Source: a virus. From it: a stretch of DNA of 40,564 bases. The position numbers were made by a program, and so were the translations under genes. How positions within the stretch are numbered: position 1 is the stretch's first letter; each line of letters starts with the position of its first letter. Below the pieces are notes generated by a model that made no database searches, was not told the DNA's origin, and saw only the letters and a program-made list of their open reading frames with translations. The stretch lies in IMG/VR virus record IMGVR_UViG_3300033128_000024, positions 1 through 40,564 of that record; one strand, given 5' to 3'. This document shows, piece after piece, positions 1-9,474 of this stretch.

Positions 1-29
1 ATTTTGCCTTCTTAAAGGAGGTGATTAAC
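1..29. repeat. Terminal direct repeat, copy 1 (identical to 40536-40564)
   Basis: attttgccttcttaaaggaggtgattaac occurs at both ends of the window. It contains the holin RBS AAAGGAGGTG. Confidence 0.95.
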
Positions 30-32
30 GAA

Positions 33-452
33 ATGGAGGAAACGATAGTGTTTATTAACTTTGAAACTTTGGATCTTGCACGAACATATCTATTTGGCGG
101 AGTGAAATTTCTGGATTTACTCTTGCTGCTAAGTGTTATTGATGTTCTGACGGGTATCATTAAAGCATGGAAGGTCGGTAAGCTGCGAAGCCGAACAGCA
201 TGGTTCGGTTACGTGCGTAAAATGCTTAGTTTTGTTGTTGTGATTGTGGCTAACATTATTGATCAGATCATGGGCTTAAATGGAGTGCTGACCTTCGGGA
301 CAGTATTGTTTTACATCGCCAACGAAGGGCTTTCTATCACAGAAAACCTTGCACAGATCGGTGTTAAAATTCCAGCTTCCATCACAGATCGACTTCACGT
401 CATCGAGTCTGACAGCCAAAAAGAAGAAGAGGAAAAGAAAGCTGCTGAGTAG
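33..452 (+). CDS. Holin (phage_holin_4_1 / toxin-secretion-phage-lysis holin family)
   Basis: RBS AAAGGAGGTG lies 11 nt upstream of ATG 33 (the track start at 21 is an in-frame GTG inside the RBS). Motifs VIDVLTGIIKAWK and FYIANEGLSITENLAQIGVKIP are typical of this holin family. There are three hydrophobic helices and an acidic/basic tail. The gene lies directly upstream of the endolysin. Confidence 0.85.
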   Translation: MEETIVFINFETLDLARTYLFGGVKFLDLLLLLSVIDVLTGIIKAWKVGKLRSRTAWFGYVRKMLSFVVVIVANIIDQIMGLNGVLTFGTVLFYIANEGLSITENLAQIGVKIPASITDRLHVIESDSQKEEEEKKAAE

Positions 453-497
453 TCGGCGGCTTTTTTCTATATAAAAAAATGAATGGAGAGATTGAAT

Positions 498-1313
498 ATG
501 ACAAAGAAAATTATGCTTGATCCCGGACACGGCGGGCACGATCCCGGAGCAGTAGCAAACGGGATGAAAGAAAAAGATCTTGTACTAACTATCGCAAAGA
601 AAACTAAAGCGATTCTTGAAAAGGTGTACGGGGCAACGGTCAAACTCACGCGTTCAACTGACGTTTATATTGATCTTTCTCAAAGAGCTAGACTAGCAAA
701 TAATTGGGGCGCTGATTATTTTGCATCCATCCATATCAATGCAGCTGGTGGAACAGGCTTTGAGACGTTTCGTTACGACAAATTATCTGCAATATCAAGC
801 ACAGGAAAGCAGCAAACAATTGTACACAATGCAATCTATAACAAAATCAAAGAAAAAATAGGAGACCGAGACCGTGGGACCAAGTCTAAAAACCTGGCTG
901 TTTTAAGAGAAACAAAAATGCCAGCGATTCTGACAGAGAACCTTTTCATAGACCGCAAAGAAGATGCTGTGCTGCTCAAACAAGAATCTTTCCTTGATTT
1001 GTTGGCCGATGGACACGCAGAAGGAATCGCGGCAGCCGTCGGTTTAAAAAAGGTGTCATCGTCATCTAAAACAAGCCCTAAAAAAGAAACGTCACCAAAG
1101 GGCGTTAAAATGGTCGTAGTGAAGCCGAATGCTGACGGGTGGTTATGGGTCTATGATAAGCCGGACTGGAAAGCAAAGTACAAAAAGGTGAAACCTGGCG
1201 AAGCATTTACGATTGATAAGACTGTGACGGTTAATGGATCGAAAATGCATAAGCTTAAATCAGGATTGTATATCACAGCTGCCACGAAATATGTTCAGGT
1301 AAAACAAAAGTAA
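498..1313 (+). CDS. Endolysin: N-acetylmuramoyl-L-alanine amidase (Amidase_3) with C-terminal SH3-like wall-binding domain
   Basis: IMLDPGHGGHDPGA, ADYFASIHINA and PAILTENLFIDR are Amidase_3 (CwlA/CwlC-type) motifs. A Ser/Lys linker precedes the C-terminal region WLWVYDKPDW...GEAFTI. ATG 498 is preferred over 483 (GGAGAG RBS). Confidence 0.9.
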   Translation: MTKKIMLDPGHGGHDPGAVANGMKEKDLVLTIAKKTKAILEKVYGATVKLTRSTDVYIDLSQRARLANNWGADYFASIHINAAGGTGFETFRYDKLSAISSTGKQQTIVHNAIYNKIKEKIGDRDRGTKSKNLAVLRETKMPAILTENLFIDRKEDAVLLKQESFLDLLADGHAEGIAAAVGLKKVSSSSKTSPKKETSPKGVKMVVVKPNADGWLWVYDKPDWKAKYKKVKPGEAFTIDKTVTVNGSKMHKLKSGLYITAATKYVQVKQK

Positions 1314-1318
1314 AATGA

Positions 1319-1350
1319 AAAGCCCTTCCGTATTGGAGGGGCTTTTTTTG
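1319..1350 (+). terminator. Intrinsic terminator after the lysis cassette
   Basis: The arms agcccttcc and ggaggggct form a stem that is followed by a T7 run. Confidence 0.8.
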
Positions 1351-1470
1351 TTTGTCATAATTTCCATACTTTATTACTAATCCACCTTCACTATTCGGTT
1401 ATTTGTAACTATGGAAATTACTGTATATTTTAAGTTATGCTTGATGGGATTAAAAAGGGGAGGGTTTGAT

Positions 1471-1944
1471 TTGAATAAAAAATGGATAACAAGAATTTCC
1501 TTATCCATTGTAGCTGCGTTGGGTATCTCCTGTACGCTTGGAGAGTTTGCAGATGCAAAAGAGAACAACAACACAACTAATCAGATAATACATAATACGA
1601 CATCAGGTTCATTTACTATGAAAGATCCTGAATTATACCAAGACGCTTTAGAGCTTGGACTCAATGACAGTGATATCTTTACACTAGATAGCCTTTTGAA
1701 CAGGGAAGATAAAGCCACAGTACATAATCCATTTCTCGTAGCTGTGGGGATAATTACGGGCATGGCTGCCGTTGTTGGTACCGGTTATGGTGCTGGTAAG
1801 TATATAGCAAAGCAGCTGTATAAACGTAAACAGCTTTCAAAGGCATATTATAAAAAACATAGATGGAAATTCAGAGCTGCATTAGTACCAGTCATCGGTA
1901 TTCCTGGAACGTTTGGCTTTGATGACTACTACATGGACATATGA
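1471..1944 (+). CDS. Hypothetical exported/membrane protein (N-terminal signal peptide, C-terminal Gly-zipper TM helix)
   Basis: Strong RBS GGGGAGGG lies 7 nt before TTG 1471. The signal-like N-terminus is NKKWITRISLSIVAALGISCTLGEFADA. The C-terminal hydrophobic segment is FLVAVGIITGMAAVVGTGYGAG. No family was recognised. Confidence 0.55.
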   Translation: MNKKWITRISLSIVAALGISCTLGEFADAKENNNTTNQIIHNTTSGSFTMKDPELYQDALELGLNDSDIFTLDSLLNREDKATVHNPFLVAVGIITGMAAVVGTGYGAGKYIAKQLYKRKQLSKAYYKKHRWKFRAALVPVIGIPGTFGFDDYYMDI

Positions 1945-2081
1945 TTATGTTTGAATATATTTTGATTTTACTTATAGTTGCAACTTTGTTACTGACAGTC
2001 GTAGAGGTTTCTAAGATCAAACGAGAAAACAAATCCCTTAGAAACGAGATAGAAGAAATAAAGAAAAACATTAAGAAATGA
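1941..2081 (+). CDS. Small single-pass membrane protein (46 aa), translationally coupled (ATGA overlap); not in the ORF track
   Basis: ATG 1941 overlaps the upstream stop TGA 1942-1944. The translation is MIMFEYILILLIVATLLLTVVEVSKIKRENKSLRNEIEEIKKNIKK. A hairpin follows at about 2090-2117. Confidence 0.45.
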   Translation: MIMFEYILILLIVATLLLTVVEVSKIKRENKSLRNEIEEIKKNIKK

Positions 2082-2117
2082 AACTTGATGGCTGTCCATT
2101 TGGGCAGCTTTTTTACT

Positions 2118-2309
2118 TTACTTAAACCGCCATTCCTTCTTCTCTTTATCCCATTCAAGTTCATTTCTTGATATAAGGTTCTTAACCGCCTTACGGATTG
2201 CTGGCTCATCCTTCCCCGTTTTCCTTTTAAGGTCATCAATCGAAGGGTTCTTGCGAAATCGGCTCATATTATAAATGATTCGGTATAACTTCCTTTCAAG
2301 ATCCGTCAC
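2118..2309 (-). CDS. Small putative winged-helix DNA-binding protein (63 aa)
   Basis: GTG start follows RBS AGGAGGG (minus strand), with TATAAT upstream. The basic, helical sequence LYRIIYNMSRFRKNPSIDDLKRKTGKDEPAIRKAVKNLISRNELE resembles a wHTH. The function is not established. Confidence 0.45.
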   Translation of the reverse strand: MTDLERKLYRIIYNMSRFRKNPSIDDLKRKTGKDEPAIRKAVKNLISRNELEWDKEKKEWRFK

Positions 2310-2382
2310 GGCATACCCTCCTGCAAAAATAGAATATACGTTCGATTATAAAGGTAAATAAATAGCCCTTCAAGTCGAAGGA

Positions 2383-3312
2383 CTATTTCAAAATAGTTGA
2401 TTTACTTTTAATTATCATGTTATCCCCTGATCGTTCGTAGGAGAATTTGGCTGCGCTCTTATCACTTATGTATGGCACTTTCCAAAATACAGATAACTGT
2501 GAAATCGATTCATTATCCGAACCTATACTAGCTGCTAAATCATCACTAAACATTTCCACCATGTTATAAGAAGTTTGAGCAGAATTTTTAAAATCAAACG
2601 ACAGGTAAACAAGAGCGATTAGTTTGTTATCTTGGTCAGTACTCATATCTTGATTAATTTCGATCTTTTCAATTGAGGCAGCCTTATAATTTTCCTCTAC
2701 AATAGATTCAATTCCATATTCCGCCTCACTTTTCAAAGTAGATAGTTCTTCATCCTTCTTTTTAGTAACTTCTGCAGCATTGTCTTTCTTACTTTTTTGT
2801 TTAACTTTTGAGGAATTCTTAATTTTAAAATTAATTTCAGCAGTAGCTACTCGACCATTCTCACCGCTAACATTAGAACCCGCAAGATTAGCCCCATCTT
2901 CTCCAAAAATCTCTTTAACATGGTCAGTTTGCAGATTTTCGGGTAACGTTTCTACATAAGCAATATACTTCCCCCCGTCATAATCCTCGCCTTCTTCATT
3001 AGAAAATTCATAATCAAACATTCCACCTTCTTTAACTATTCCCTTAGCTAGCTCGCTTTGATCAGAATTTGGTGCATCTAAGTAAATGTTTATTTTTGTC
3101 TCTTTAGGTAAGTTGCTTTTTCCGATAATGAGAATCTTTTTATTGTCTTTAATTTTTTTATTCAAGGTGATCTTTACGTTTAATTTTTCTTTAGTTTCAA
3201 TGCTTTCTTCTTTTTTATTAGAGTTACTTGTGGATGTGTTATCTGCTTTGCCACAAGCAGATATGAATAAGGCGGACAAAATTAAAAAGAGAAAGAAATT
3301 AATGCGATTCAA
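2383..3312 (-). CDS. Prophage lipoprotein (hypothetical)
   Basis: An internal GGAGGG RBS lies 6 nt before TTG at 3312. The signal and lipobox read NRINFFLFLILSALFISAC-GK. The mature part is Lys/Glu/Ser-rich. A hairpin terminator lies on the minus strand at about 2355-2378. Confidence 0.7.
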   Translation of the reverse strand: MNRINFFLFLILSALFISACGKADNTSTSNSNKKEESIETKEKLNVKITLNKKIKDNKKILIIGKSNLPKETKINIYLDAPNSDQSELAKGIVKEGGMFDYEFSNEEGEDYDGGKYIAYVETLPENLQTDHVKEIFGEDGANLAGSNVSGENGRVATAEINFKIKNSSKVKQKSKKDNAAEVTKKKDEELSTLKSEAEYGIESIVEENYKAASIEKIEINQDMSTDQDNKLIALVYLSFDFKNSAQTSYNMVEMFSDDLAASIGSDNESISQLSVFWKVPYISDKSAAKFSYERSGDNMIIKSKSTILK

Positions 3313-3470
3313 TGCAAACCCTCCAGACCAAATATTTTCCAATTAAGTCTAACACAAATTTTTATTGGAAAGAGGGGAAATAATGTATTTTCTCATATTA
3401 AGAATATAACGAAATCGACAATCAAGATGTTATAATTTAGTAAGAACAATTAACAATTGGGGTGTGTTAT

Positions 3471-4994
3471 ATGTATTTCAAAAAATCATCAGTTGAAGAA
3501 ATCATCAAATATGACGACTACCCTTATAAAATTTATACAAGGGTTTCAACGGACAGAGATGAACAAATAAGTTCTAAAGAAAACCAGATCGACGTTTGCA
3601 GGTACTGGATCGAGCAACATAATTATGAATGGGATGACCGTTCTGTTTTGTTAGATGATGGTATCAGCGGAACCGTCCTTGAAGATAGGGCAGCCATGAA
3701 ATACATTTTTTCATTGGCGGAAAAGAAAGAAATAAAGATGGTGATTTTTAAATCTATCACACGTCTTGCTCGGGATCTGAAAGACGCTTTATATATCAGA
3801 GAAATTTTGGTTTCTAATGGGGTTCGAGTAGTGACTCTTGAAGAGGACTATGACTCCCTTTACGAGAGTAAAGCGTCAATGAAATTTGAAATGTCTGCTC
3901 TGTTTGCGGAGCAGTTACCTAAGTCTATGTCAGTCAATATAAGTGGTGTACTTGCAGCAAAAGCAAGGCGGGGTGAACATTCTGGTCGAGTGCCCTACGG
4001 TTATATGAAAGAGGGTAAACACCTTGTAATTAACGAAAATGAAGCTCAAGTTATTAGATTAATTTTTCACCTTTATAATAACGAGGGCTTGGGCCATAAA
4101 AGGGTTACATACGCTTTGCAAGAAAAATGTAAGCTAGGTGAAATACCACCTCCAAAAAAACGTAGTAATTGGCAGCTCACAACAGTTCAAACCATTTTAA
4201 GAAACCCTATATATTGCGGTGTGCATATAGCTAATAGGCATACTACAATAAAAGTTGATGGTCGAAAAAAATTCATTCGGAATCCACCCGAAAAATGGAC
4301 CGTTTACGAAGACTTTTGCCCGCCGATTGTCTCAAGAGAGGATTGGGAAAAAGCAAATAATAAACTGACTGTCAATAAAAAAACTAAATTCACACCGTGG
4401 AATGAGTTGAGACAATTACTTATTTGTGGTAAATGTGGTTCTAATATGGTGATTATCCAAACAAGCAGAGCCAAACAAAATGGTGAAAAAACGTATTGGA
4501 AGTACGTTAAATGCAGTAATTACAGAAGAGCTGGTCAAGAAGGTTGTGTTAACCATGTTCCAATTACTTATGAAGAGGTCAGGGACTTAGTCATTGAAAA
4601 TCTAATCGAATTCTCCAAGGATATATCACATGATTACAGAAAAAATGCAATTGAACAAAAAGAAAAACAAATGAAGTCTGTTAAAGTAGAGTTGAAATCT
4701 TTAGAAACACAGAATAAAAGATTGCTGGAACTTTACTTAGAAGATCAGATTATTTCAAAAGCCGAGTTCCAAACAAAGCGCAATGAAATTCAATCTAATA
4801 TAATTAAACTTGAACAGAGTTTATTTTCCTTACAGCAGGTGCATGATGAGAAAAGTTCAATGATGGAAATGCAAGCGGTTCTTCGAGAGCTTGAAGACAA
4901 AGAAAAAGATTTAAAGCATGTGTTTGATAAGCTCATTGATCATATTGTGATCCACCCAAACGGGAAAATGAATTTTCATTATAGATTTAAATGA
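3471..4994 (+). CDS. int: Large serine recombinase (phage integrase)
   Basis: The N-terminal resolvase catalytic motif is YTRVSTDRDEQ. The recombinase domain follows. The zinc-ribbon is CGKCGSNM...CSNYRRAGQEGCVNH. The C-terminus is a coiled coil. This architecture is typical of phiC31/A118/SprA-type integrases. Confidence 0.9.
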   Translation: MYFKKSSVEEIIKYDDYPYKIYTRVSTDRDEQISSKENQIDVCRYWIEQHNYEWDDRSVLLDDGISGTVLEDRAAMKYIFSLAEKKEIKMVIFKSITRLARDLKDALYIREILVSNGVRVVTLEEDYDSLYESKASMKFEMSALFAEQLPKSMSVNISGVLAAKARRGEHSGRVPYGYMKEGKHLVINENEAQVIRLIFHLYNNEGLGHKRVTYALQEKCKLGEIPPPKKRSNWQLTTVQTILRNPIYCGVHIANRHTTIKVDGRKKFIRNPPEKWTVYEDFCPPIVSREDWEKANNKLTVNKKTKFTPWNELRQLLICGKCGSNMVIIQTSRAKQNGEKTYWKYVKCSNYRRAGQEGCVNHVPITYEEVRDLVIENLIEFSKDISHDYRKNAIEQKEKQMKSVKVELKSLETQNKRLLELYLEDQIISKAEFQTKRNEIQSNIIKLEQSLFSLQQVHDEKSSMMEMQAVLRELEDKEKDLKHVFDKLIDHIVIHPNGKMNFHYRFK

Positions 4995-5011
4995 TGCTGT
5001 AAGTTATACTC

Positions 5012-5059
5012 ATTTGTAAAAGGTATGCATAACAAATGCTAAGCATACCTTTTACAAAT
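5012..5059. repeat. Perfect 17-bp inverted repeat with a 14-nt spacer, directly 3' of int (candidate attP or protein-binding site; atypical terminator)
   Basis: atttgtaaaaggtatgc (5012-5028) is the exact reverse complement of gcataccttttacaaat (5043-5059). There is no U-tract on either strand. Confidence 0.6.
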
Positions 5060-5244
5060 TAATTCCTCGAATAAACAAAATAACTCCGAAAGTCATATGT
5101 TAATAAGTTGAACAAAAGGATTATAATTGAATTACAAGAAGTAATTACTTGTGTATTAGAGCAAAAATTCATACTTCTGCGACAATTTCCGACAACATTT
5201 TTTTGTACTTCATGATAAATTTAACAATGGTAAGGTGATCATAT

Positions 5245-6348
5245 ATGACAAGTACAATCGCGAAAGACTTACGGACACATTTAAGAAACTCAATTGAAAT
5301 GTCTAAAGAAAGTCAAAAACAAGTTGCAGCAAAGCTGGGTATAAGCAGTAGTTATTTAAGTAAATTTTTAAATGGCAAGGATGTCTCGTTCTGGATTGTT
5401 CATAAGATCATTAATCACATCGACAAAGAGAACGAAATCGAACTTATTTTGAATTATTTTAAAGAAGGCATTAGTTCTAAAAATATTCCTGCTGCTTTAG
5501 AATATTGTTATTCCAAGCAATTGTACGATTATACAAGTGTTCTTGCACAGGAGTACAAAAATAAAAGAAATTCAAAAACTCAGGAATTATGTTCTTTATA
5601 TTCGTTAATGTTAGAGTCAAGATTTATATTCGAAAGTAATACTTTTTTAGATAACCTGAGAAATTTTAAAAACACCTTTTTGGAAACTGAAATTATGGTG
5701 AAGGTCTTACAAGTCTATTACTATTATTTGAACGGCCATTATGATTTAACTATTTATACGATTGATCAAATAAATGACTTGTTGTTTCAGGTTAATGATC
5801 CGTTTCTAAAAATGGCATACGGTGCTAGGGTAGATGAAATTCAAGTCAATATTTACTTGAAGCAAAAAACAGAATTAATACAATCACGAAAAATCGCTAA
5901 CAGAATTTTGGATAGGAATTTCAGCACAGCTCACAACATTACTGCTTATCATATTTTAGGTCTTTCCTATTTTCCAGAATCCTATGAACAGTCAATTTCT
6001 TATTATCTTAAATGTATTGAACTTTATTCGAAATTTCCTGATAGACAGGCCGAAATTCTGGAAAATAAAGAAGAAATATCGTTCCTTCAAAAGTACTGGA
6101 ATAAAAGTATTCATGACGAATTCGCAGTAAGTGAATTCTCCTTGTTATTAAAACAAGATGGGGATTTAAGCAAATATTATAAAGATGAGAGATATCATAA
6201 ATATGCGCTTCTTTTTGATGGAATAAAAGAATCTTCATCAGAAAAATTGTTATTATCACATCATTATTTTTCAAAAAGCAAAGATTATTTCAGGGCAAGT
6301 TTCCCAAAAAATGAATTGAATAGAATTGGATTTAGGTATACACTCTAA
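5245..6348 (+). CDS. aimR: RRNPP-family peptide receptor, AimR-like (N-terminal XRE-type HTH plus TPR-like helical repeats)
   Basis: HTH: SQKQVAAKLGISSSYLSKFLNGK. TPR-like segments include AYHILGLSYFPESYEQSISYYLKCIELY. The gene is 367 aa and lies directly upstream of a short secreted-peptide gene, between the integrase and the CI-like repressor. This is arbitrium-type synteny. Confidence 0.65.
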   Translation: MTSTIAKDLRTHLRNSIEMSKESQKQVAAKLGISSSYLSKFLNGKDVSFWIVHKIINHIDKENEIELILNYFKEGISSKNIPAALEYCYSKQLYDYTSVLAQEYKNKRNSKTQELCSLYSLMLESRFIFESNTFLDNLRNFKNTFLETEIMVKVLQVYYYYLNGHYDLTIYTIDQINDLLFQVNDPFLKMAYGARVDEIQVNIYLKQKTELIQSRKIANRILDRNFSTAHNITAYHILGLSYFPESYEQSISYYLKCIELYSKFPDRQAEILENKEEISFLQKYWNKSIHDEFAVSEFSLLLKQDGDLSKYYKDERYHKYALLFDGIKESSSEKLLLSHHYFSKSKDYFRASFPKNELNRIGFRYTL

Positions 6349-6367
6349 GAGTTAGGGGGTGCTATAC

Positions 6368-6502
6368 ATGACTAAACGTTTCAATGTAATTGTTTTAACA
6401 GTTACACTAGGAGCAACAATAGTTGTTTCGGAAATTCACTCACTTATCACTAACAACCCAGAAACAATATATGAAACAAAAGATGTAAGACCGGGAATGT
6501 AA
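6368..6502 (+). CDS. aimP: AimP-like signalling pre-pro-peptide (44 aa); not in the ORF track
   Basis: The RBS TAGGGGG lies 7 nt before ATG 6368. The translation is MTKRFNVIVLTVTLGATIVVSEIHSLITNNPETIYETKDVRPGM. It has a basic N-terminus, a hydrophobic signal-like core and a polar C-terminal tail ending in DVRPGM. Confidence 0.6.
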   Translation: MTKRFNVIVLTVTLGATIVVSEIHSLITNNPETIYETKDVRPGM

Positions 6503-6516
6503 ATATAAGATGTTAA

Positions 6517-6556
6517 AAAGACGCTACCATAATCAGGTATCGTCTTTCGTGTTTTC
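6517..6556. terminator. Bidirectional intrinsic terminator between aimP-like and the convergent repressor gene
   Basis: The arms are aaagacgctacc and ggtatcgtcttt (12 bp, 1 mismatch, 7-nt loop). The hairpin is flanked by an A5 run upstream (T-run on the - strand) and by cgtgttttc downstream. Confidence 0.7.
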
Positions 6557-6564
6557 TGGGGAAG

Positions 6565-6597
6565 TTTCCTGTTTTCAAAAAAAACGAAAACAGGAAA
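6565..6597. promoter_or_regulatory. Perfect 12-bp inverted repeat: second hairpin, or a dimer-binding site in the arbitrium output region
   Basis: The arms are tttcctgttttc and gaaaacaggaaa, with a 9-nt loop aaaaaaaac. ttctttt follows on the + strand. Confidence 0.5.
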
Positions 6598-6664
6598 TTC
6601 TTTTAAATATTTCTAATATGGATTAAAATATAAACAGAACAAATGTTCCTTGGAGGGAAGAGAA

Positions 6665-6781
6665 ATGGCTATAAAATATGAAGAATTAATGGAAATCTTA
6701 GAAGCAACAAAAAAAGAAGATCAAAATCAATCCTCTTCAGGTGAATCGTCTTCTAAAAATTTAGCCTTAGAAGCTCTGTAA
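6665..6781 (+). CDS. Candidate arbitrium output gene (AimX-position small ORF, 38 aa), or the 5' part of a non-coding antisense transcript
   Basis: The RBS GGAGGG lies 8 nt before ATG 6665. The translation is MAIKYEELMEILEATKKEDQNQSSSGESSSKNLALEAL. The last 55 nt overlap the 3' end of the convergent repressor gene. Coding status is uncertain. Confidence 0.3.
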   Translation: MAIKYEELMEILEATKKEDQNQSSSGESSSKNLALEAL

Positions 6782-7155
6782 TTTTTAAGGGCATCTAACA
6801 TGAAATTACGTTCATCATCTGTTATTTGTTTGCCATCTGCATCTATAATGTTTGCATTTTTGATATTCTCAAGAGTTAGTTCTTTCGCGAAAACTACTTT
6901 TTCAGCTTCTTTACCCATTTTTTCAAGGTCACTTGGATCAGTCACAAAGTAAGTGGGGTCAACATTGAAAAAATCTGCAAGTTTGGTCAAAGCCTCCAAA
7001 GAGGGACTTTTGATTTTGCCCGTTTCGAGTTTTGATAAATAGCCGTTACTTAAACCAACTTCTTGAGCGAGCTTTCTAATAGATAGTTTGGGTTTTTGCT
7101 CTTGTCTTAGTCTTTTTAAGTTTATTCCGATTAACTCATTTTTCTTGTTATCCAT
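6727..7155 (-). CDS. XRE-family HTH repressor (CI-like lysogeny maintenance repressor)
   Basis: HTH: LSIRKLAQEVGLSNGYLSKLETGK. The gene is divergent from a Cro-like gene. No S24 peptidase domain is visible. Confidence 0.85.
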   Translation of the reverse strand: MDNKKNELIGINLKRLRQEQKPKLSIRKLAQEVGLSNGYLSKLETGKIKSPSLEALTKLADFFNVDPTYFVTDPSDLEKMGKEAEKVVFAKELTLENIKNANIIDADGKQITDDERNFMLDALKNYRASKAKFLEDDSPEED

Positions 7156-7205
7156 AAAATAAAGTCACCTCGATTTAACGCCACTGATTAGTAACAACAA
7201 TATTA

Positions 7206-7234
7206 ATTATACCATGTTTAAGATTCCTATAAGA
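7206..7234 (-). promoter_or_regulatory. Putative repressor promoter (extended -10)
   Basis: The minus strand reads TGgTATAAT (reverse complement of 7206-7214). The -35 is weak, TCTTAT, at 17-nt spacing. Confidence 0.4.
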
Positions 7235-7254
7235 AACATTTATGAAATTTATGG

Positions 7255-7283
7255 TTGCACTTAAATCAGAAGGATGGTATATT
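7255..7283 (+). promoter_or_regulatory. Putative early lytic promoter (sigma-A type)
   Basis: TTGCAC (7255-7260), a 17-nt spacer, then TATATT (7278-7283). The palindrome gcttcc-ttta-ggaagc (7292-7307) lies in the leader. Confidence 0.55.
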
Positions 7284-7326
7284 TTACTTGTGCTTCCTTT
7301 AGGAAGCGTATGAGGGGGTGAAAACG

Positions 7327-7530
7327 GTGGGCCAAGAAACTGATTCTTTTGCAGAAAAGATTAAAAAACTAAGGTCAGATAGAAACGAAACTCAACGTCA
7401 ATTTGGCTTAGTTACAGGGTTTTCTAGCTCTTATATATGTAAGTTGGAAAAAGGAAAAGCAAACCCTTCGCACTCTTCTTTAGTTCAACTAAGTGAAAAA
7501 TTAAATTTGCCACCGGCTTATTTTTTTTAA
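7327..7530 (+). CDS. XRE-family HTH protein (Cro-like)
   Basis: HTH: TQRQFGLVTGFSSSYICKLEKGK. RBS GAGGGGG lies 9 nt before GTG 7327 (the track start 7318 abuts the RBS). Confidence 0.8.
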   Translation: MGQETDSFAEKIKKLRSDRNETQRQFGLVTGFSSSYICKLEKGKANPSHSSLVQLSEKLNLPPAYFF

Positions 7531-7610
7531 CCTGAGTGCTTCCTATAGTGATCAAAATTCTTAGGGTAGTCCCATTGTCCAAATTGCATATTATGTTTCG
7601 AGGTGATCTT

Positions 7611-7763
7611 ATGACTCAAAGAAAGAAAAAGAAAAAAAGCAACCTGTTCGTGGGGGAAATTTTCTTTGGAACAGAAGACAGAGAAAAGCTTTTTACTGAG
7701 GCTGTGGCACCTTATTACACACCAGTAAAAAAAGAGAAGAACAAAAAAATTAAAGAGGCTTGA
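7611..7763 (+). CDS. Small basic hypothetical protein (50 aa)
   Basis: RBS GAGGTGA lies before ATG 7611. The translation begins MTQRKKKKKSNLFVGE. The upstream part of track ORF 7536 has no RBS. Confidence 0.4.
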   Translation: MTQRKKKKKSNLFVGEIFFGTEDREKLFTEAVAPYYTPVKKEKNKKIKEA

Positions 7764-7820
7764 AACTTTTGTTTCACCTTTTTTTAAAGGACAAGCTAAA
7801 CACAAAGAGGTGATTAAAAC

Positions 7821-8669
7821 ATGGCTAAGTATAGACATGTTCACACGACTTTTTGGCAAGATCCAAAAGTCACAGAAGAACTGACACCAGAAGATAGATA
7901 CTTTTATTTGTACCTTATTACAAACCCAAACACCACTCAAATAGGAATATACCCAATTACCAAGAAACAAATGGCTTTTGATTTAGGGTACTCGATTGAG
8001 TCGGTCAATAGCTTGATGGATCGCTTCGTAAATCATCACAAACTGATACTTTACAACAATGACACAAGGGAAATGGCAATAAAGAATTGGCCTAAATACA
8101 ACTTGAATAAAGGTGGAAAGCCAATATTAGACTGTGTCACTAAAGAATTGAGAGAGGTTAAAGATAAATCTCTCATGAATGTACTTTATCCAAAAATCGA
8201 GAATACCAGCATTAGAGAAGTGTTTGAACGATACGCCGACGATACGTTGCACGATACGTCGACGACAAGCGGACAAAAAGAAAAAGAAAAAGAAAAAGAA
8301 AAAGAAAAAAAAGATATATTGTCGGGAAACCCGACTGCTGATGAATCAGAAATACCATTCAAACTCATAACGGATCTTCTCAATCAAATGTCAGAGAAAA
8401 ATTACCGTCACACCACACCAAAGACACAGCAACTAATAAAAGCAAGATGGAACGAGGGGTTTAGATTTGATGATTTTAAAAAGGTCATCTTAGCAAAATG
8501 CTTTGAATGGCGTGATAACCCTGACATGAGTAAATTCCTTCGTCCCGAAACACTTTTCGGAACAAAATTCGAAGGCTACTTAAACAACAGTGATGAGGTG
8601 ATAAAGCGTGCACAGCATAAAGGTGGCGGCAGCCGAAGTCATAACCGACAAAATGACCTTCCATTCTGA
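7821..8669 (+). CDS. Phage replisome organiser / DnaD-like replication initiator (N-terminal rep_org domain plus Phg_2220_C-type C-terminal domain)
   Basis: The N-terminus HVHTTFWQDPKV...EDRYFYLYLITNPNTTQIGIY and the C-terminus ARWNEGFRFDDFKKVI...FLRPETLFGTKFEGYLN are typical of this family. The (EK)n linker is encoded by the A-tract repeat. Confidence 0.8.
   Translation: MAKYRHVHTTFWQDPKVTEELTPEDRYFYLYLITNPNTTQIGIYPITKKQMAFDLGYSIESVNSLMDRFVNHHKLILYNNDTREMAIKNWPKYNLNKGGKPILDCVTKELREVKDKSLMNVLYPKIENTSIREVFERYADDTLHDTSTTSGQKEKEKEKEKEKKDILSGNPTADESEIPFKLITDLLNQMSEKNYRHTTPKTQQLIKARWNEGFRFDDFKKVILAKCFEWRDNPDMSKFLRPETLFGTKFEGYLNNSDEVIKRAQHKGGGSRSHNRQNDLPF
8228..8313. repeat. Three phased ACGATACG iterons followed by an (AAAAAG)n tract: candidate replication origin inside the initiator gene
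   Basis: ACGATACG occurs at 8228, 8239 and 8251 (11- and 12-bp spacing). AAAAAG occurs five times plus AAAAAAAAG, at 8275-8313. Confidence 0.5.
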
Positions 8670-9474
8670 TTACTGTGAAAAGCACACATACACCCGTGGC
8701 GGTGAAGATGTTGTAAAACCTGTCCGAATGATGGTGATGAATGGGAAAGTTATTTGCCCTCGATGTGAACTGGAAGAAGAGTCAAAGAAATTGCAAAAAG
8801 ACTTAGAAAGTCAAATTGAATATAGCCAGCGACAGAAAAAATTTAACACGTTGGAAAAACGCAGCATGTTCAGGGATCGAACTGTCTCACAAGCAACATT
8901 TGAAAATTACAATGTTGCTGAGCCAGAAGAGACCAAGAATAAAAAACGAATGATGGATTTTGTTAAACACTTGCAACAAGGTGAAGTGTTCAACATATTT
9001 TTGCAGGGCCATCCGGGAGTGGGGAAGAGTCACCTTGCATATGCAGCACTTAGAGAACTTAATGTGCCTCCTGATCCCGACAACCCTAAAGACAAAGGTC
9101 GATCATGCTTGTTTATCAATATGGAAGATGCTGCTACGGCAATTAAAGATTCATTCAGCAACAAAGAGAGCAAGTACACAGAAGCGTATGTGACTCAGTT
9201 GATGGGTGAGGCCGATTATCTCGTGATAGATGACATCGGCGCAGAAACAGGGTCAGAGCATTCGGATAGTAAAGCCAGTGATTTCATTCATCGTCTCATC
9301 TACAAAGTAACATCTGCTCGGCAGGATAAAGTGACGATTTATACAACAAACCTTACTAGCGAAAAGCTGTATCAAATGTATGACAGCAAGCTAGTATCAC
9401 GCATCACCCAAAAGCAGCAGTACATCATTTTTAAAGACACATCGGACAAGCGTAAAGAAGTATTGCCGTTCTAA
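8608..9474 (+). CDS. DnaC/IstB-like AAA+ helicase loader
   Basis: Walker A is GHPGVGKSHLA and Walker B is YLVIDDIG. The N-terminal Cys pair is CPRCE. The GTG start follows RBS GAGGTGA and overlaps the upstream gene. Confidence 0.85.
   Translation: MHSIKVAAAEVITDKMTFHSDYCEKHTYTRGGEDVVKPVRMMVMNGKVICPRCELEEESKKLQKDLESQIEYSQRQKKFNTLEKRSMFRDRTVSQATFENYNVAEPEETKNKKRMMDFVKHLQQGEVFNIFLQGHPGVGKSHLAYAALRELNVPPDPDNPKDKGRSCLFINMEDAATAIKDSFSNKESKYTEAYVTQLMGEADYLVIDDIGAETGSEHSDSKASDFIHRLIYKVTSARQDKVTIYTTNLTSEKLYQMYDSKLVSRITQKQQYIIFKDTSDKRKEVLPF

What the first reader, a model, noticed from the sequence alone, without database searches (positions are those of the whole stretch)
5245..6502. Arbitrium-like receptor and peptide pair with a non-canonical peptide C-terminus (DVRPGM)
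A 367-aa protein with an HTH and TPR-like repeats is followed after 19 nt by a 44-aa ORF that has its own RBS. The small ORF has a basic N-terminus, a hydrophobic export segment and a polar tail. Both lie between the integrase and the CI/Cro switch. This is the architecture and context of AimR/AimP, in which the secreted pro-peptide is trimmed to its C-terminal hexapeptide. Known Bacillus arbitrium peptides end in RGA, GG or GA (SAIRGA in phi3T, GMPRGA in SPbeta). This one ends ...ETKDVRPGM, so the mature signal and receptor specificity would be of a different type. The locus also coexists with a classical XRE repressor/Cro pair, which is not the SPbeta-type lysogeny circuitry. The small gene is below the ORF-track cutoff and is easy to miss.
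Basis: partly seen in the sequence, partly recalled or inferred. Interest (0 to 1): 0.75.

Follow-up and report, generated by a model that had tools for sequence, protein, structure and literature searches.

The report
Known-type phage arbitrium module, new peptide
This is a genuine phage "arbitrium" peptide-signalling module that helps decide between killing the host and going dormant, but it belongs to an already described type (phi106-like, clade 1), and only the exact peptide, DVRPGM, looks new.

Summary
A 367-aa HTH/TPR receptor gene (5245-6348) is followed after 19 nt by a 44-aa secreted-peptide gene (6368-6502) with its own RBS.

The receptor is an AimR:
- NCBIfam lysogeny_AimR scores 233 bits (cutoff 70) and Pfam AimR 113 bits (cutoff 26.7).
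- An AlphaFold model matches 16 solved AimR chains (TM 0.66-0.81). PlcR, Rap and ComR reach only 0.34-0.46.
- Proteins 83-96% identical are already named AimR in Bacillus pumilus genomes.

The novelty claims do not hold. A C-terminus ending in GM is typical of this AimR lineage. Eighteen related loci end in [DE][VI][RKI]VG[MA], and the tested phi106 peptide is DPPVGM and the phiW23 peptide EIIVGA. Only Pro at position 4 is particular. It is fixed in a B. pumilus-group sub-clade.

The XRE/Cro pair is not an oddity. It is AimC/AimL of the "extended arbitrium" architecture, reported for about 75% of systems.

- the aimP terminator;
- a conserved TTTCC-N23-GGAAA inverted repeat, the likely AimR operator;
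- the window's only LexA box;
- a 38-aa aimX antirepressor ORF that overlaps aimC.

Verdict: a new member of a known kind, of low interest.

The parts
3462..4994 (+). Large serine recombinase (phage integrase); context, not part of the signalling module
   Evidence: Pfam Resolvase, Recombinase and Zn_ribbon_recom domains; PHROG 95 integrase, E 4e-104
5035..5103 (+). attP-proximal stretch that supplies the replacement 3' end of gerE in integrated prophages
   Evidence: Homology to the B. pumilus prophage junction L014 starts here. The translation ...NAKHTFYKLIPRINKITPKVIC* matches the C-terminus of the L014 'gerE' ORF.
5100..5127 (+). Promoter-like site upstream of aimR (TTAATA-16-TATAAT)
   Evidence: Best consensus match in 5000-7600, 10 of 12 positions. 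The number of promoter-like sites in the region is no higher than in shuffles, so this is weak evidence.
5245..6348 (+). aimR, the arbitrium peptide receptor and transcription activator (367 aa)
   Evidence: NCBIfam NF038310 233 bits (cutoff 70), full length. Pfam PF22871 113 bits (cutoff 26.7). AlphaFold model with pLDDT 91.7. Top 16 PDB fold hits are all AimR.
6368..6502 (+). aimP, the pre-pro-peptide (44 aa)
   Evidence: RBS AGGGGG 8 nt upstream and signal-peptide-like N-terminus. A matching short ORF lies just after aimR in all 19 loci (overlapping it in L020).
6482..6499 (+). Codons for the predicted mature hexapeptide DVRPGM
   Evidence: C-terminal 6 residues. Invariant in five loci with AimR 83-100% identical. 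The length is assumed from the active 6-mers of phi106 and phiW23.
6517..6556 (+). aimRP intrinsic terminator: hairpin AAAGACGCTACC/GGTATCGTCTTT followed by CGTGTTTTC
   Evidence: Inverted repeat I3. RNA fold -12.2 kcal/mol, z -3.0. Near-invariant in 19 loci, with one compensatory pair TACC/GGTA to TGCC/GGCA. Kabel et al. draw an 'aimP terminator region' at this place in phi106.
6565..6597 (.). Perfect inverted repeat TTTCCTGTTTTC-N9-GAAAACAGGAAA, the inferred AimR operator
   Evidence: 100% complementary arms. The outer boxes TTTCC and GGAAA are 23 nt apart in 17 of 19 loci (22 or 24 in the other two) while the centre varies. It always lies 9 nt after the terminator. The layout resembles the SPbeta operator of 6-bp boxes with a 25-bp spacer (PMC6458997). 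Binding was not tested.
6602..6634 (+). aimX promoter-like region (TTTAAA-16-TAAAAT, or the overlapping TATAAA)
   Evidence: Promoter scan. A -10 TATAAT aligns at this position in related loci.
6636..6649 (.). LexA (SOS) box AGAACAAATGTTCC
   Evidence: The only GAAC-N4-GTTC in the 40.5-kb window. Such a box lies just before the aimX RBS in 8 of the 18 related loci, or 11 if near-matches are counted. The equivalent phi106 site was shown to mediate LexA control of aimX.
6665..6781 (+). aimX candidate, a small antirepressor ORF (38 aa, MAIKYEELMEILEATKKEDQNQSSSGESSSKNLALEAL)
   Evidence: RBS GGAGGG 7 nt upstream. A short ORF at the same place in related loci has a similar N-terminal helix pattern. 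It overlaps the aimC 3' end by 55 nt. It matches the description of AimX in Kabel et al..
6727..7155 (-). aimC, a short XRE-type phage repressor (142 aa) with no autocleavage domain
   Evidence: Pfam reports only HTH families. 42% identical to the AimC of the phi106-like locus L020. PDB 9sf2_A matches at E 7e-25.
7205..7284 (.). Imperfect inverted repeat (…TATACCAT… / …ATGGTATA…) in the aimC-aimL intergenic region, a possible AimC operator
   Evidence: Weak evidence, not followed up.
7318..7530 (+). aimL, a Cro-like HTH protein (70 aa) heading the early lytic and replication operon
   Evidence: Pfam HTH_19 and HTH_3. Followed by genes with Phg_2220_C and IstB-like ATPase domains.

Best explanation
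The locus is a complete 'extended' arbitrium lysis-lysogeny module of the phi106/phiW23 type (AimR clade 1). It sits in a Bacillus pumilus-group siphovirus that integrates with a serine recombinase into gerE.

**Proposed mechanism**
1. AimR (5245-6348) and the pre-pro-peptide AimP (6368-6502) are co-transcribed, and transcription stops at the hairpin at 6517-6556.
2. AimP is secreted and trimmed, most likely to its C-terminal hexapeptide DVRPGM. The peptide is re-imported.
3. Peptide-free AimR dimers bind the inverted repeat TTTCC-N23-GGAAA (6565-6597) and activate the weak promoter just downstream.
4. That promoter is also repressed by host LexA at the box at 6636-6649.
5. It drives aimX (6665-6781), a 38-aa antirepressor. 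AimX binds the short XRE repressor AimC (6727-7155, minus strand), stops it oligomerising, and so releases the aimL (Cro-like) early lytic and replication operon.
6. High peptide concentration, meaning many previous infections or many lysogens, inactivates AimR, keeps aimX off and favours lysogeny. DNA damage removes LexA and favours lysis.

**Shown here:** gene identities, order, conservation, the motifs and the structural class.

**Inferred by homology to phi106, phiW23 and SPbeta:** peptide processing and length, AimR binding to the repeat, LexA binding, and AimX-AimC antagonism.
For: **AimR membership**
- NCBIfam and Pfam scores lie above the curated cutoffs.
- A family profile hits solved AimRs at E 3e-25 to 2e-15.
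- The fold search gives 16 AimR chains at TM 0.66-0.81, then a gap to PlcR, ComR and Rap at TM 0.34-0.46.
- Homologues 83-96% identical are already named AimR in B. pumilus, B. australimaris and unnamed Bacillus sp. isolates.

**Lineage**
- The AimR is 36% identical (E 1e-76) to the AimR of locus L020. L020 carries DPPVGM and a 29-aa ORF right after a LexA box, as described for phi106.
- It is 41-43% identical to the B. inaquosorum AimR whose AimP ends in EIIVGA, the phiW23 peptide.

**Peptide motif**
- All 19 loci carry [DE][VIP][RKIP][VP]G[MA].

**Cis elements**
- The terminator, the repeat with constant spacing, the -10 and the LexA box are conserved in the same order.
- The window has only one LexA box, and it lies exactly here.

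**AimX, AimC and AimL**
- Their layout fits the published extended architecture and mechanism.
- AimC is 42% identical to the phi106-like AimC.

**Phage context**
- The window contains a holin, an amidase, replication genes and tail genes.
Against: - Nothing here is experimental for this phage.
- The mature peptide length is assumed. Residues -10 to -7 ([YFI][QEK][TV][KTAS]) are about as conserved as the hexapeptide. Clade-dependent lengths of 6-10 aa have been proposed.
- The inverted repeat also folds as an RNA hairpin (-16.4 kcal/mol, z -4.2) followed by a U-rich tail, so it could be a second terminator.
- In L025 the two arms have changed together. That fits either a hairpin or a dimer binding site.
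- The LexA box is degenerate or absent in some close relatives (L002, L022, L023), so SOS input may not be universal.
- Clade 1 placement rests on bracketing by phi106-like and phiW23-like loci identified through their peptides. The reference tree of Stokar-Avihail et al. 2019 could not be obtained.
Confidence: 0.85

Rival explanations
1. The module is a new class of arbitrium signal. The ...RPGM C-terminus would define a receptor-peptide type outside the known clades, wired into a CI/Cro switch in an undescribed way.
For: - The peptide does not end in RGA, GG or GA, and DVRPGM or VRPGM does not occur in the searchable literature.
- The DVRPGM receptors form a long-branched sub-clade, at most 48% identical to any other AimR found.
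Against: - The GM ending, Gly at -2, an acidic residue at -6, the regulatory cassette and the aimX/aimC/aimL layout are all shared with phi106-like and phiW23-like loci.
- The peptides of phi106 and phiW23 are published and active.
- The CI/Cro-like pair is the majority architecture.
- The peptide differs from its neighbours DVKVGM and EVRVGM at only two positions.
Confidence: 0.07
2. The receptor is a host-type RRNPP regulator (Rap, NprR or PlcR) with a Phr-like peptide. It would be carried as a phage moron controlling host sporulation or competence rather than the phage switch.
For: - Some Bacillus phages carry Rap-Phr systems (PDB 8rtc and 8rsu are phi3T Rap, seen).
- The prophage sits in the sporulation gene gerE.
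Against: - No Rap, NprR or PlcR family appeared in the Pfam or NCBIfam results.
- Fold matches to Rap, PlcR, ComR and PrgX have TM 0.30-0.46 and E above 9e-3. AimR matches have TM up to 0.81 and E 5.6e-10.
- The position, between the integrase and the repressor with aimX aimed at aimC, is that of a switch component.
Confidence: 0.02
3. The arbitrium genes are real, but aimX acts mainly as an antisense RNA against aimC, and the 38-aa ORF is incidental.
For: - The aimX transcript would overlap at least 55 nt of the aimC 3' end.
- Cis-antisense control was the earlier published proposal.
Against: - In phi106 a recoded aimX still works in trans, and an aimX stop mutant loses regulation.
- A short ORF with an RBS and a similar N-terminal helix pattern is present in related loci whether or not it overlaps aimC.
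Confidence: 0.06

Closest known systems
phi106 / phiW23 extended arbitrium systems (AimR clade 1; Aframian et al. bioRxiv 10.1101/2021.09.20.460909; Kabel et al. bioRxiv 10.1101/2025.11.23.689978)
   Same: - Gene order aimR-aimP-terminator-LexA box-aimX, with convergent aimC, divergent aimL and then replication genes.
- The peptide ends in xVG[M/A]-like residues (DPPVGM, EIIVGA).
- A short AimC with no autocleavage domain (42% identical to the phi106-like AimC).
- aimX overlaps the aimC 3' end.
- Near-identical terminator and inverted-repeat cassette.
   Different: - AimR is only 36-43% identical.
- The peptide has Pro instead of Val at position 4 and Arg at position 3.
- AimX is 38 aa rather than 29-30 aa, and the overlap with aimC is longer (55 nt against 30 nt).
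- The host is the B. pumilus group.
- The phage uses a large serine recombinase targeting gerE. The related B. subtilis-group loci use a tyrosine integrase next to smpB or the PRK (uridine-kinase-family) gene.
SPbeta / phi3T / Katmira arbitrium (AimR clade 2)
   Same: - The same receptor fold (TM 0.66-0.81).
- aimP lies directly downstream.
- The operator lies downstream of aimP and consists of two short inverted boxes with a long AT-rich spacer.
- The logic is that the peptide inactivates the activator of aimX.
   Different: - About 19-21% sequence identity.
- Peptides are xxxRGA.
- The operator is ATCACT-N25-AGTGAT.
- aimX acts through different targets (an RNA, or MazF/YosL).
- The master repressor is SroF within sroDEF, not an XRE/Cro pair.
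- DNA damage is integrated downstream of aimX, not at its promoter.
SinR/SinI repressor-antirepressor pair of B. subtilis
   Same: A small helical protein blocks oligomerisation of a short XRE-type repressor. Kabel et al. draw this analogy. SinR appears among the PDB sequence hits of the window's AimC.
   Different: SinR/SinI is a host biofilm circuit. It has no peptide receptor and no LexA input, and the match covers only the HTH domain.

Membership tests
AimR family (NCBIfam NF038310, Pfam PF22871) | Full-length match above the curated thresholds | tested here: met
   NF038310: 233.4 bits against a cutoff of 70, residues 13-358 on profile positions 1-365. PF22871: 113.2 bits against a cutoff of 26.7.
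AimR family (NCBIfam NF038310, Pfam PF22871) | N-terminal HTH followed by an all-helical TPR-like domain, closer in structure to solved AimRs than to other RRNPP receptors | tested here: met
   Model pLDDT 91.7, 19 helices. Foldseek ranks 1-16 are all AimR (E 5.6e-10 to 4.4e-7, TM 0.66-0.81). Next is PlcR at E 9e-3, TM 0.39, and Rap at TM 0.34-0.46.
Arbitrium system (AimR-AimP-AimX) | A short gene directly downstream of aimR on the same strand, encoding a signal-peptide-bearing pro-peptide with the signal at its C-terminus | tested here: met
   19-nt gap, RBS, 44 aa, basic N-terminus then a hydrophobic segment. Conserved in 19 of 19 loci. No signal-peptide predictor was available.
Arbitrium system (AimR-AimP-AimX) | The mature peptide is secreted, processed, imported by Opp, and binds AimR | not testable with these tools
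   Needs mass spectrometry, ITC or reporter assays.
Arbitrium system (AimR-AimP-AimX) | AimR operator downstream of aimP: two inverted boxes with a long spacer, upstream of aimX | tested here: inconclusive
   A perfect repeat at 6565-6597, with constant TTTCC-N23-GGAAA spacing in 17 of 19 loci and a variable centre, fits the SPbeta layout. Binding is untested, and an RNA hairpin is also possible.
Extended arbitrium architecture (aimX/aimC/aimL; Kabel et al. 2025) | A small single-HTH gene (80-140 aa, no autocleavage domain) immediately downstream and convergent (aimC), with a divergent small HTH gene (aimL) followed by replication genes | tested here: met
   aimC is 142 aa, 2 aa over the quoted range, with HTH families only. 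aimL is 70 aa with an HTH. Phg_2220_C and IstB-like ATPase genes follow.
Extended arbitrium architecture (aimX/aimC/aimL; Kabel et al. 2025) | A short ORF (29-80 aa) between aimP and aimC in the aimP direction (the AimX antirepressor) | tested here: met
   A 38-aa ORF at 6665-6781 with RBS GGAGGG. Equivalent ORFs occur in related loci. The AimX-AimC interaction itself was not tested.
phi106-family (clade 1) systems | A LexA box upstream of aimX that integrates the SOS signal | tested here: met
   AGAACAAATGTTCC at 6636-6649, the only GAAC-N4-GTTC in the window. The same position is occupied in the phi106-like L020 and in several other loci.
phi106-family (clade 1) systems | AimR falls in clade 1 of the Stokar-Avihail 2019 tree | tested here: inconclusive
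   The reference tree and sequences were not obtainable. In an NJ tree the window group branches among loci that carry the phiW23 peptide, with the phi106-peptide locus as the outermost branch.
SPbeta-type (clade 2) arbitrium | An xxxRGA peptide and an SPbeta-type neighbourhood instead of an XRE/Cro pair | tested here: not met
   The peptide ends in RPGM and the neighbours are aimC and aimL. A tblastn search of the phage collection at E 1e-5 returned no SPbeta or phi3T record.
Rap-Phr / NprR / PlcR host quorum-sensing receptors | A family-level sequence or fold match | tested here: not met
   No such Pfam or NCBIfam hit at E up to 1. Fold matches have TM of 0.46 or less.

The most novel reading that the evidence does not exclude
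DVRPGM may be an insulated 'dialect' within clade 1.

- The Val-to-Pro change at position 4 is fixed in a long-branched AimR sub-clade of gerE-integrating B. pumilus-group phages.
- It could block cross-talk with the DVKVGM and EVRVGM phages that circulate in the same species group. This would parallel the way Pro3 separates the SPbeta and Katmira signals.
- All these AimRs nevertheless keep the same operator, so co-resident phages could still cross-activate each other's aimX at the DNA level.
- Combined with the LexA box and the insertion in gerE, one phage would integrate a peptide signal, the SOS response and sporulation.
Probability: 0.35. Interest if true: 0.35.

Novelty: new member of a known kind. 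Interest (0 to 1): 0.2.

Why it matters
For a specialist this is a routine annotation. The receptor family, the peptide motif class, the AimX/AimC/AimL circuit and the LexA input have all been published, and close homologues are already named AimR in GenBank.

The modest value lies in three points:
- A compact, fully annotated example from the B. pumilus group with a peptide allele (DVRPGM) that I could not find in the literature.
- A comparative definition of a likely clade 1 AimR operator, TTTCC-N23-GGAAA placed 9 nt after the aimP terminator. It is conserved across receptors only 35-48% identical and is directly testable.
- A natural Pro/Val difference at peptide position 4 that could be used to study specificity and cross-talk in clade 1, for which no receptor-peptide structure turned up in the PDB searches.

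Tried and rejected
- **Megablast against phages.** Window 3400-8700 gave no match, so no near-identical sequenced phage exists in that collection.
- **Single-sequence phmmer against the PDB.** The receptor found only designed TPR proteins. A family profile was needed to reach solved AimRs.
- **Stokar-Avihail et al. 2019.** I could not obtain it by PMC id or DOI, so clade assignment is indirect.
- **Kabel et al. supplements.** They are not held, so I could not check whether DVRPGM is already in their database of 9300 AimR loci.
- **Other papers checked.** Neither the cross-communication preprint nor the 2025 review gives clade 1 peptides.
- **Pfam, NCBIfam and PHROGs on AimP and AimX.** Nothing significant, as expected for peptides this short.
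- **ORF 6510-6626 (38 aa).** Rejected as a gene. It spans the terminator and the inverted repeat, and its apparent conservation (the L006 ORF) reflects conserved DNA, not a maintained frame.
- **The TTG start at 6650 for aimX.** Rejected in favour of ATG 6665, which has the RBS.
- **Specificity residues.** I listed AimR positions specific to the DVRPGM group, for example N229A, L200Q, Q273E, I280F and L339H. Without a receptor-peptide structure for this clade they cannot be assigned to the pocket. The clade 2 contact residue N206 aligns to a Lys here, so I make no claim.
- **The 7205-7284 imperfect repeat.** Noted as a possible AimC operator but not pursued.
Full report
**1. The observation**

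The ORF list and the sequence show a 367-aa ORF at 5245-6348 (+).
- Its stop codon is followed by 19 nt containing AGGGGG, then an ATG at 6368.
- That ATG opens a 44-aa ORF ending at 6502: MTKRFNVIVLTVTLGATIVVSEIHSLITNNPETIYETKDVRPGM.
- The peptide has a basic N-terminus, a 16-residue uncharged and mostly hydrophobic stretch, and a polar tail.
- Upstream lies a large serine recombinase (3462-4994). Downstream lie a convergent XRE repressor (6727-7155, minus strand) and a divergent Cro-like gene (7318-7530).

**2. The receptor is an AimR**

- NCBIfam NF038310 'lysogeny_AimR' (equivalog) matches end to end at 233 bits, against a cutoff of 70.
- Pfam PF22871 AimR scores 113 bits against a cutoff of 26.7, and an HTH_3 match covers residues 23-46.
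- PHROG 1728 matches at E 1e-46.
- The large protein database holds proteins 83-96% identical, already named 'AimR family lysis-lysogeny pheromone receptor'. They come from Bacillus pumilus, B. australimaris and unnamed Bacillus sp. isolates.
- A profile of 24 relatives reaches the solved AimRs of Katmira, SPbeta and phi3T at E 3e-25 to 2e-15.
- An AlphaFold2 model has mean pLDDT 91.7 and pTM 0.87. Its 16 best PDB matches are all AimR structures (E 5.6e-10 to 4.4e-7, TM 0.66-0.81).
- The next matches are PlcR (E 9e-3, TM 0.39), ComR, Rap (TM 0.34-0.46) and PrgX.

**3. The small ORF is a real aimP, and its C-terminus is typical of the lineage**

I collected 18 related loci. They came from a genome scan, from contigs encoding database homologues, and from one GenBank phage record.

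In each of them a short ORF with a basic-then-hydrophobic N-terminus starts just after aimR (overlapping aimR in L020). The motifs found are:

| Peptide | Where |
|---|---|
| DVRPGM | window plus four loci whose AimR is 83-96% identical |
| DVKVGM | L005, L006, L009 |
| EVRVGM | L001, L007 and the identical L008, L010, L018, L024 |
| EIRVGM | L003 |
| EIRVGA | L011, with identical aimP in L012 and L013 |
| EIKVGA | L004, L025 |
| EIIVGA | L015, L016 |
| DPPVGM (followed by 17 more residues) | L020 |

- EIIVGA is the synthetic peptide used for phage phiW23, and DPPVGM the one used for phi106. Both are described as clade 1 systems, and both peptides were active in reporter or induction assays.
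- L020 also has a 29-aa ORF immediately after a LexA box, as described for phi106 aimX.
- The window's AimR is 36% identical to the L020 AimR (E 1e-76) and 41-43% identical to the EIIVGA-associated AimR.
- In a neighbour-joining tree the five DVRPGM receptors form one tight, long-branched group. It sits among these loci, with the DPPVGM locus outermost.

So 'ends in GM, not RGA/GG/GA' is a property of a known lineage and not a new signal type. What is particular is Pro instead of Val at position 4.
- I found no occurrence of DVRPGM or VRPGM in the searchable literature.
- I could not check the large supplementary tables of the survey papers.

**4.

The 160 nt between aimP and the next ORF are far better conserved than the proteins. 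They are near 90% identical across loci whose AimRs share 35-48%. In order, the region contains the following.

*(a) A terminator.*
- A hairpin AAAGACGCTACC/GGTATCGTCTTT is followed by CGTGTTTTC (6517-6556).
- It folds at -12.2 kcal/mol with z -3.0.
- It shows one compensatory change, TACC/GGTA to TGCC/GGCA, among the loci.
- This is the aimRP terminator, drawn at the same place for phi106.

*(b) An inverted repeat, exactly 9 nt further on in every locus where both elements were matched.*
- The window carries the perfect repeat TTTCCTGTTTTC-N9-GAAAACAGGAAA (6565-6597).
- The outer boxes TTTCC and GGAAA are 23 nt apart in 17 of 19 loci, and 22 or 24 nt apart in the other two. The centre varies freely.
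- Short inverted boxes with a long AT-rich spacer downstream of aimP is the known AimR operator layout. SPbeta has ATCACT-N25-AGTGAT and phi3T has ATGTTC-N25-GAACAT (PMC6458997).
- The HTH region (residues 20-50) is among the most densely invariant parts of the AimR alignment.
- I therefore infer that this is the AimR operator.
- The stretch can also fold as an RNA hairpin (-16.4 kcal/mol), so a second terminator is not excluded.

*(c) A weak promoter-like site at 6602-6634.*

*(d) A LexA box.*
- AGAACAAATGTTCC lies at 6636-6649. It is the only GAAC-N4-GTTC in the 40.5-kb window.
- The shuffle control shows that one such site somewhere in the window is not improbable (34 of 100 shuffles). The argument rests on its position.
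- Eight of the 18 related loci have such a box just before the aimX RBS, or eleven if near-matches are counted.
- In phi106, mutating the equivalent site or expressing non-cleavable LexA showed that LexA represses aimX.

*(e) aimX.*
- An RBS GGAGGG precedes an ATG at 6665, which opens a 38-aa ORF: MAIKYEELMEILEATKKEDQNQSSSGESSSKNLALEAL (6665-6781).
- It overlaps the aimC 3' end by 55 nt.
- Short ORFs with a similar N-terminal amphipathic pattern occupy this place in related loci.
- This fits the AimX antirepressor of Kabel et al. It is 29-80 aa, sometimes overlaps aimC, binds AimC, blocks its oligomerisation and DNA binding, and releases the aimL promoter.

*(f) aimC and aimL.*
- The window's AimC is 142 aa, has HTH families only and no peptidase domain.
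- It is 42% identical to the AimC of the phi106-like locus and matches PDB 9sf2_A at E 7e-25.
- aimL is followed by replication genes.

Kabel et al. report this aimR-aimP-aimX/aimC/aimL arrangement for about 75% of 9300 AimR loci, against about 4% for the SPbeta type. The coexisting XRE/Cro pair is therefore the rule, not an anomaly.

**5. Mechanism**

Steps 1-6 are given under the best explanation.
- Shown here: gene identities, order, conserved motifs and spacing, and the structural class.
- Inferred from phi106, phiW23 and SPbeta: secretion and processing to a hexapeptide, AimR binding to the repeat, LexA binding, and the AimX-AimC interaction.

The main uncertainty is the mature peptide length.
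- The four residues before the hexapeptide ([YFI][QEK][TV][KTAS]) are about as conserved as the hexapeptide itself. They could be a processing signal or part of the signal.
- Lengths of 6-10 aa have been proposed for different clades.

**6. What might be mildly new**

- In clade 2, Pro against Val at peptide position 3 is the main determinant separating the SPbeta and Katmira signals.
- By analogy, Pro4 could insulate the DVRPGM phages from the DVKVGM and EVRVGM phages found in the same species group. L024 is from B. pumilus, and L005-L009 are from B. altitudinis, B. stratosphericus, B. safensis and B. zhangzhouensis.
- Sixteen AimR positions are fixed differently in the DVRPGM group. They cannot be mapped to a pocket without a clade 1 complex structure, and none turned up in the PDB searches.
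- This is a testable detail and not a new kind of system.

**7. Context**

- The window begins with a holin and an amidase and ends in tail genes. The integrase and aimR are adjacent.
- In B. pumilus chromosomes, the homologous prophage starts inside gerE. Window 5035-5103 supplies a replacement gerE 3' end.
- The window therefore looks like the unintegrated, circularly permuted phage genome of a gerE-targeting phage.

**8. Verdict**

The interpretation as AimR/AimP is supported, but the claims of a non-canonical signal type and unusual circuitry are not. This is a new member, with a new peptide allele, of a known kind. Interest is low.

Noticed in passing
window 1-5103; L014 5647-5859: The window looks like an unintegrated or circularly permuted phage genome. 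It runs holin 21-452, amidase 483-1313, serine recombinase 3462-4994, then a 23-codon stretch (5035-5103) that forms the 3' end of the 'gerE' ORF at prophage junctions in B. pumilus (L014 and L023). There the prophage replaces the GerE C-terminus (…RNHISNA|KHTFYKLIPRSIKITPKVIC). This phage group therefore splits the sporulation regulator gene gerE, as SPbeta does with spsM. gerE-intervening elements are known (PMC5595907), but that paper does not mention B. pumilus.
   Followed up: partly
L020 3633-3848 (also L021): In the phi106-like locus the aimP ORF reads …HQLADPPVGMSYKLESHVEKTEKQTFY*. The active peptide DPPVGM is internal and followed by 17 residues, unlike the C-terminal position in every other locus examined. 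The AimR ORF there is also longer (397 aa) and overlaps aimP.
   Followed up: no
window 6517-6597 and the aligned regions of L001-L025 (alignment A4): The aimP terminator and the adjacent inverted repeat are near 90% conserved in DNA among phages whose AimR proteins are only 35-48% identical. The terminator stem keeps one position mismatched in every locus (C/T opposite A/T/C). A terminator would not normally need this degree of sequence conservation, so it may hide a further binding site. TTTCGTGTTTTC at 6545-6556 is a third, 1-mismatch copy of the operator half-site.
   Followed up: partly
L010 versus L001, L007, L018 and L024: The identical predicted peptide EVRVGM is paired with AimR receptors that are only 45-47% identical to each other. 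Receptor divergence and signal identity are decoupled in this lineage, so cross-talk between unrelated prophages is likely.
   Followed up: no
L004 and L006 (both from Bacillus stratosphericus KcN0-8): One genome carries two clade-1-type arbitrium modules with different peptides (EIKVGA and DVKVGM). The inner operator sequence also differs slightly (TTTCCTTTTTG against TTTCCTGTTTT).
   Followed up: no
L001 (GenBank KY197768.1, labelled Bacillus phage phi105): This record carries a full aimR-aimP(EVRVGM)-aimX-aimC-aimL module and has no gene annotation there. Phage phi105 is described in the literature as lacking arbitrium. The record is therefore probably a phi106-type relative and not phi105 proper.
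   Followed up: no
window 2383-3342 (-) and 1411-1944 (+): Between the lysis genes and the integrase lie a 319-aa ORF with a lipoprotein-like N-terminus (…LSALFISAC GK…) on the opposite strand and a 177-aa ORF. Neither has a Pfam match. They are possible lysogenic-conversion (moron) genes.
   Followed up: no
L007/L008 2255-2781 versus window 6692-7218: An aimC-like sequence 76% identical in DNA to the window's aimC lies upstream of aimR in the B. zhangzhouensis-type loci, not downstream of aimX. This suggests modular shuffling of repressor cassettes among these prophages.
   Followed up: no
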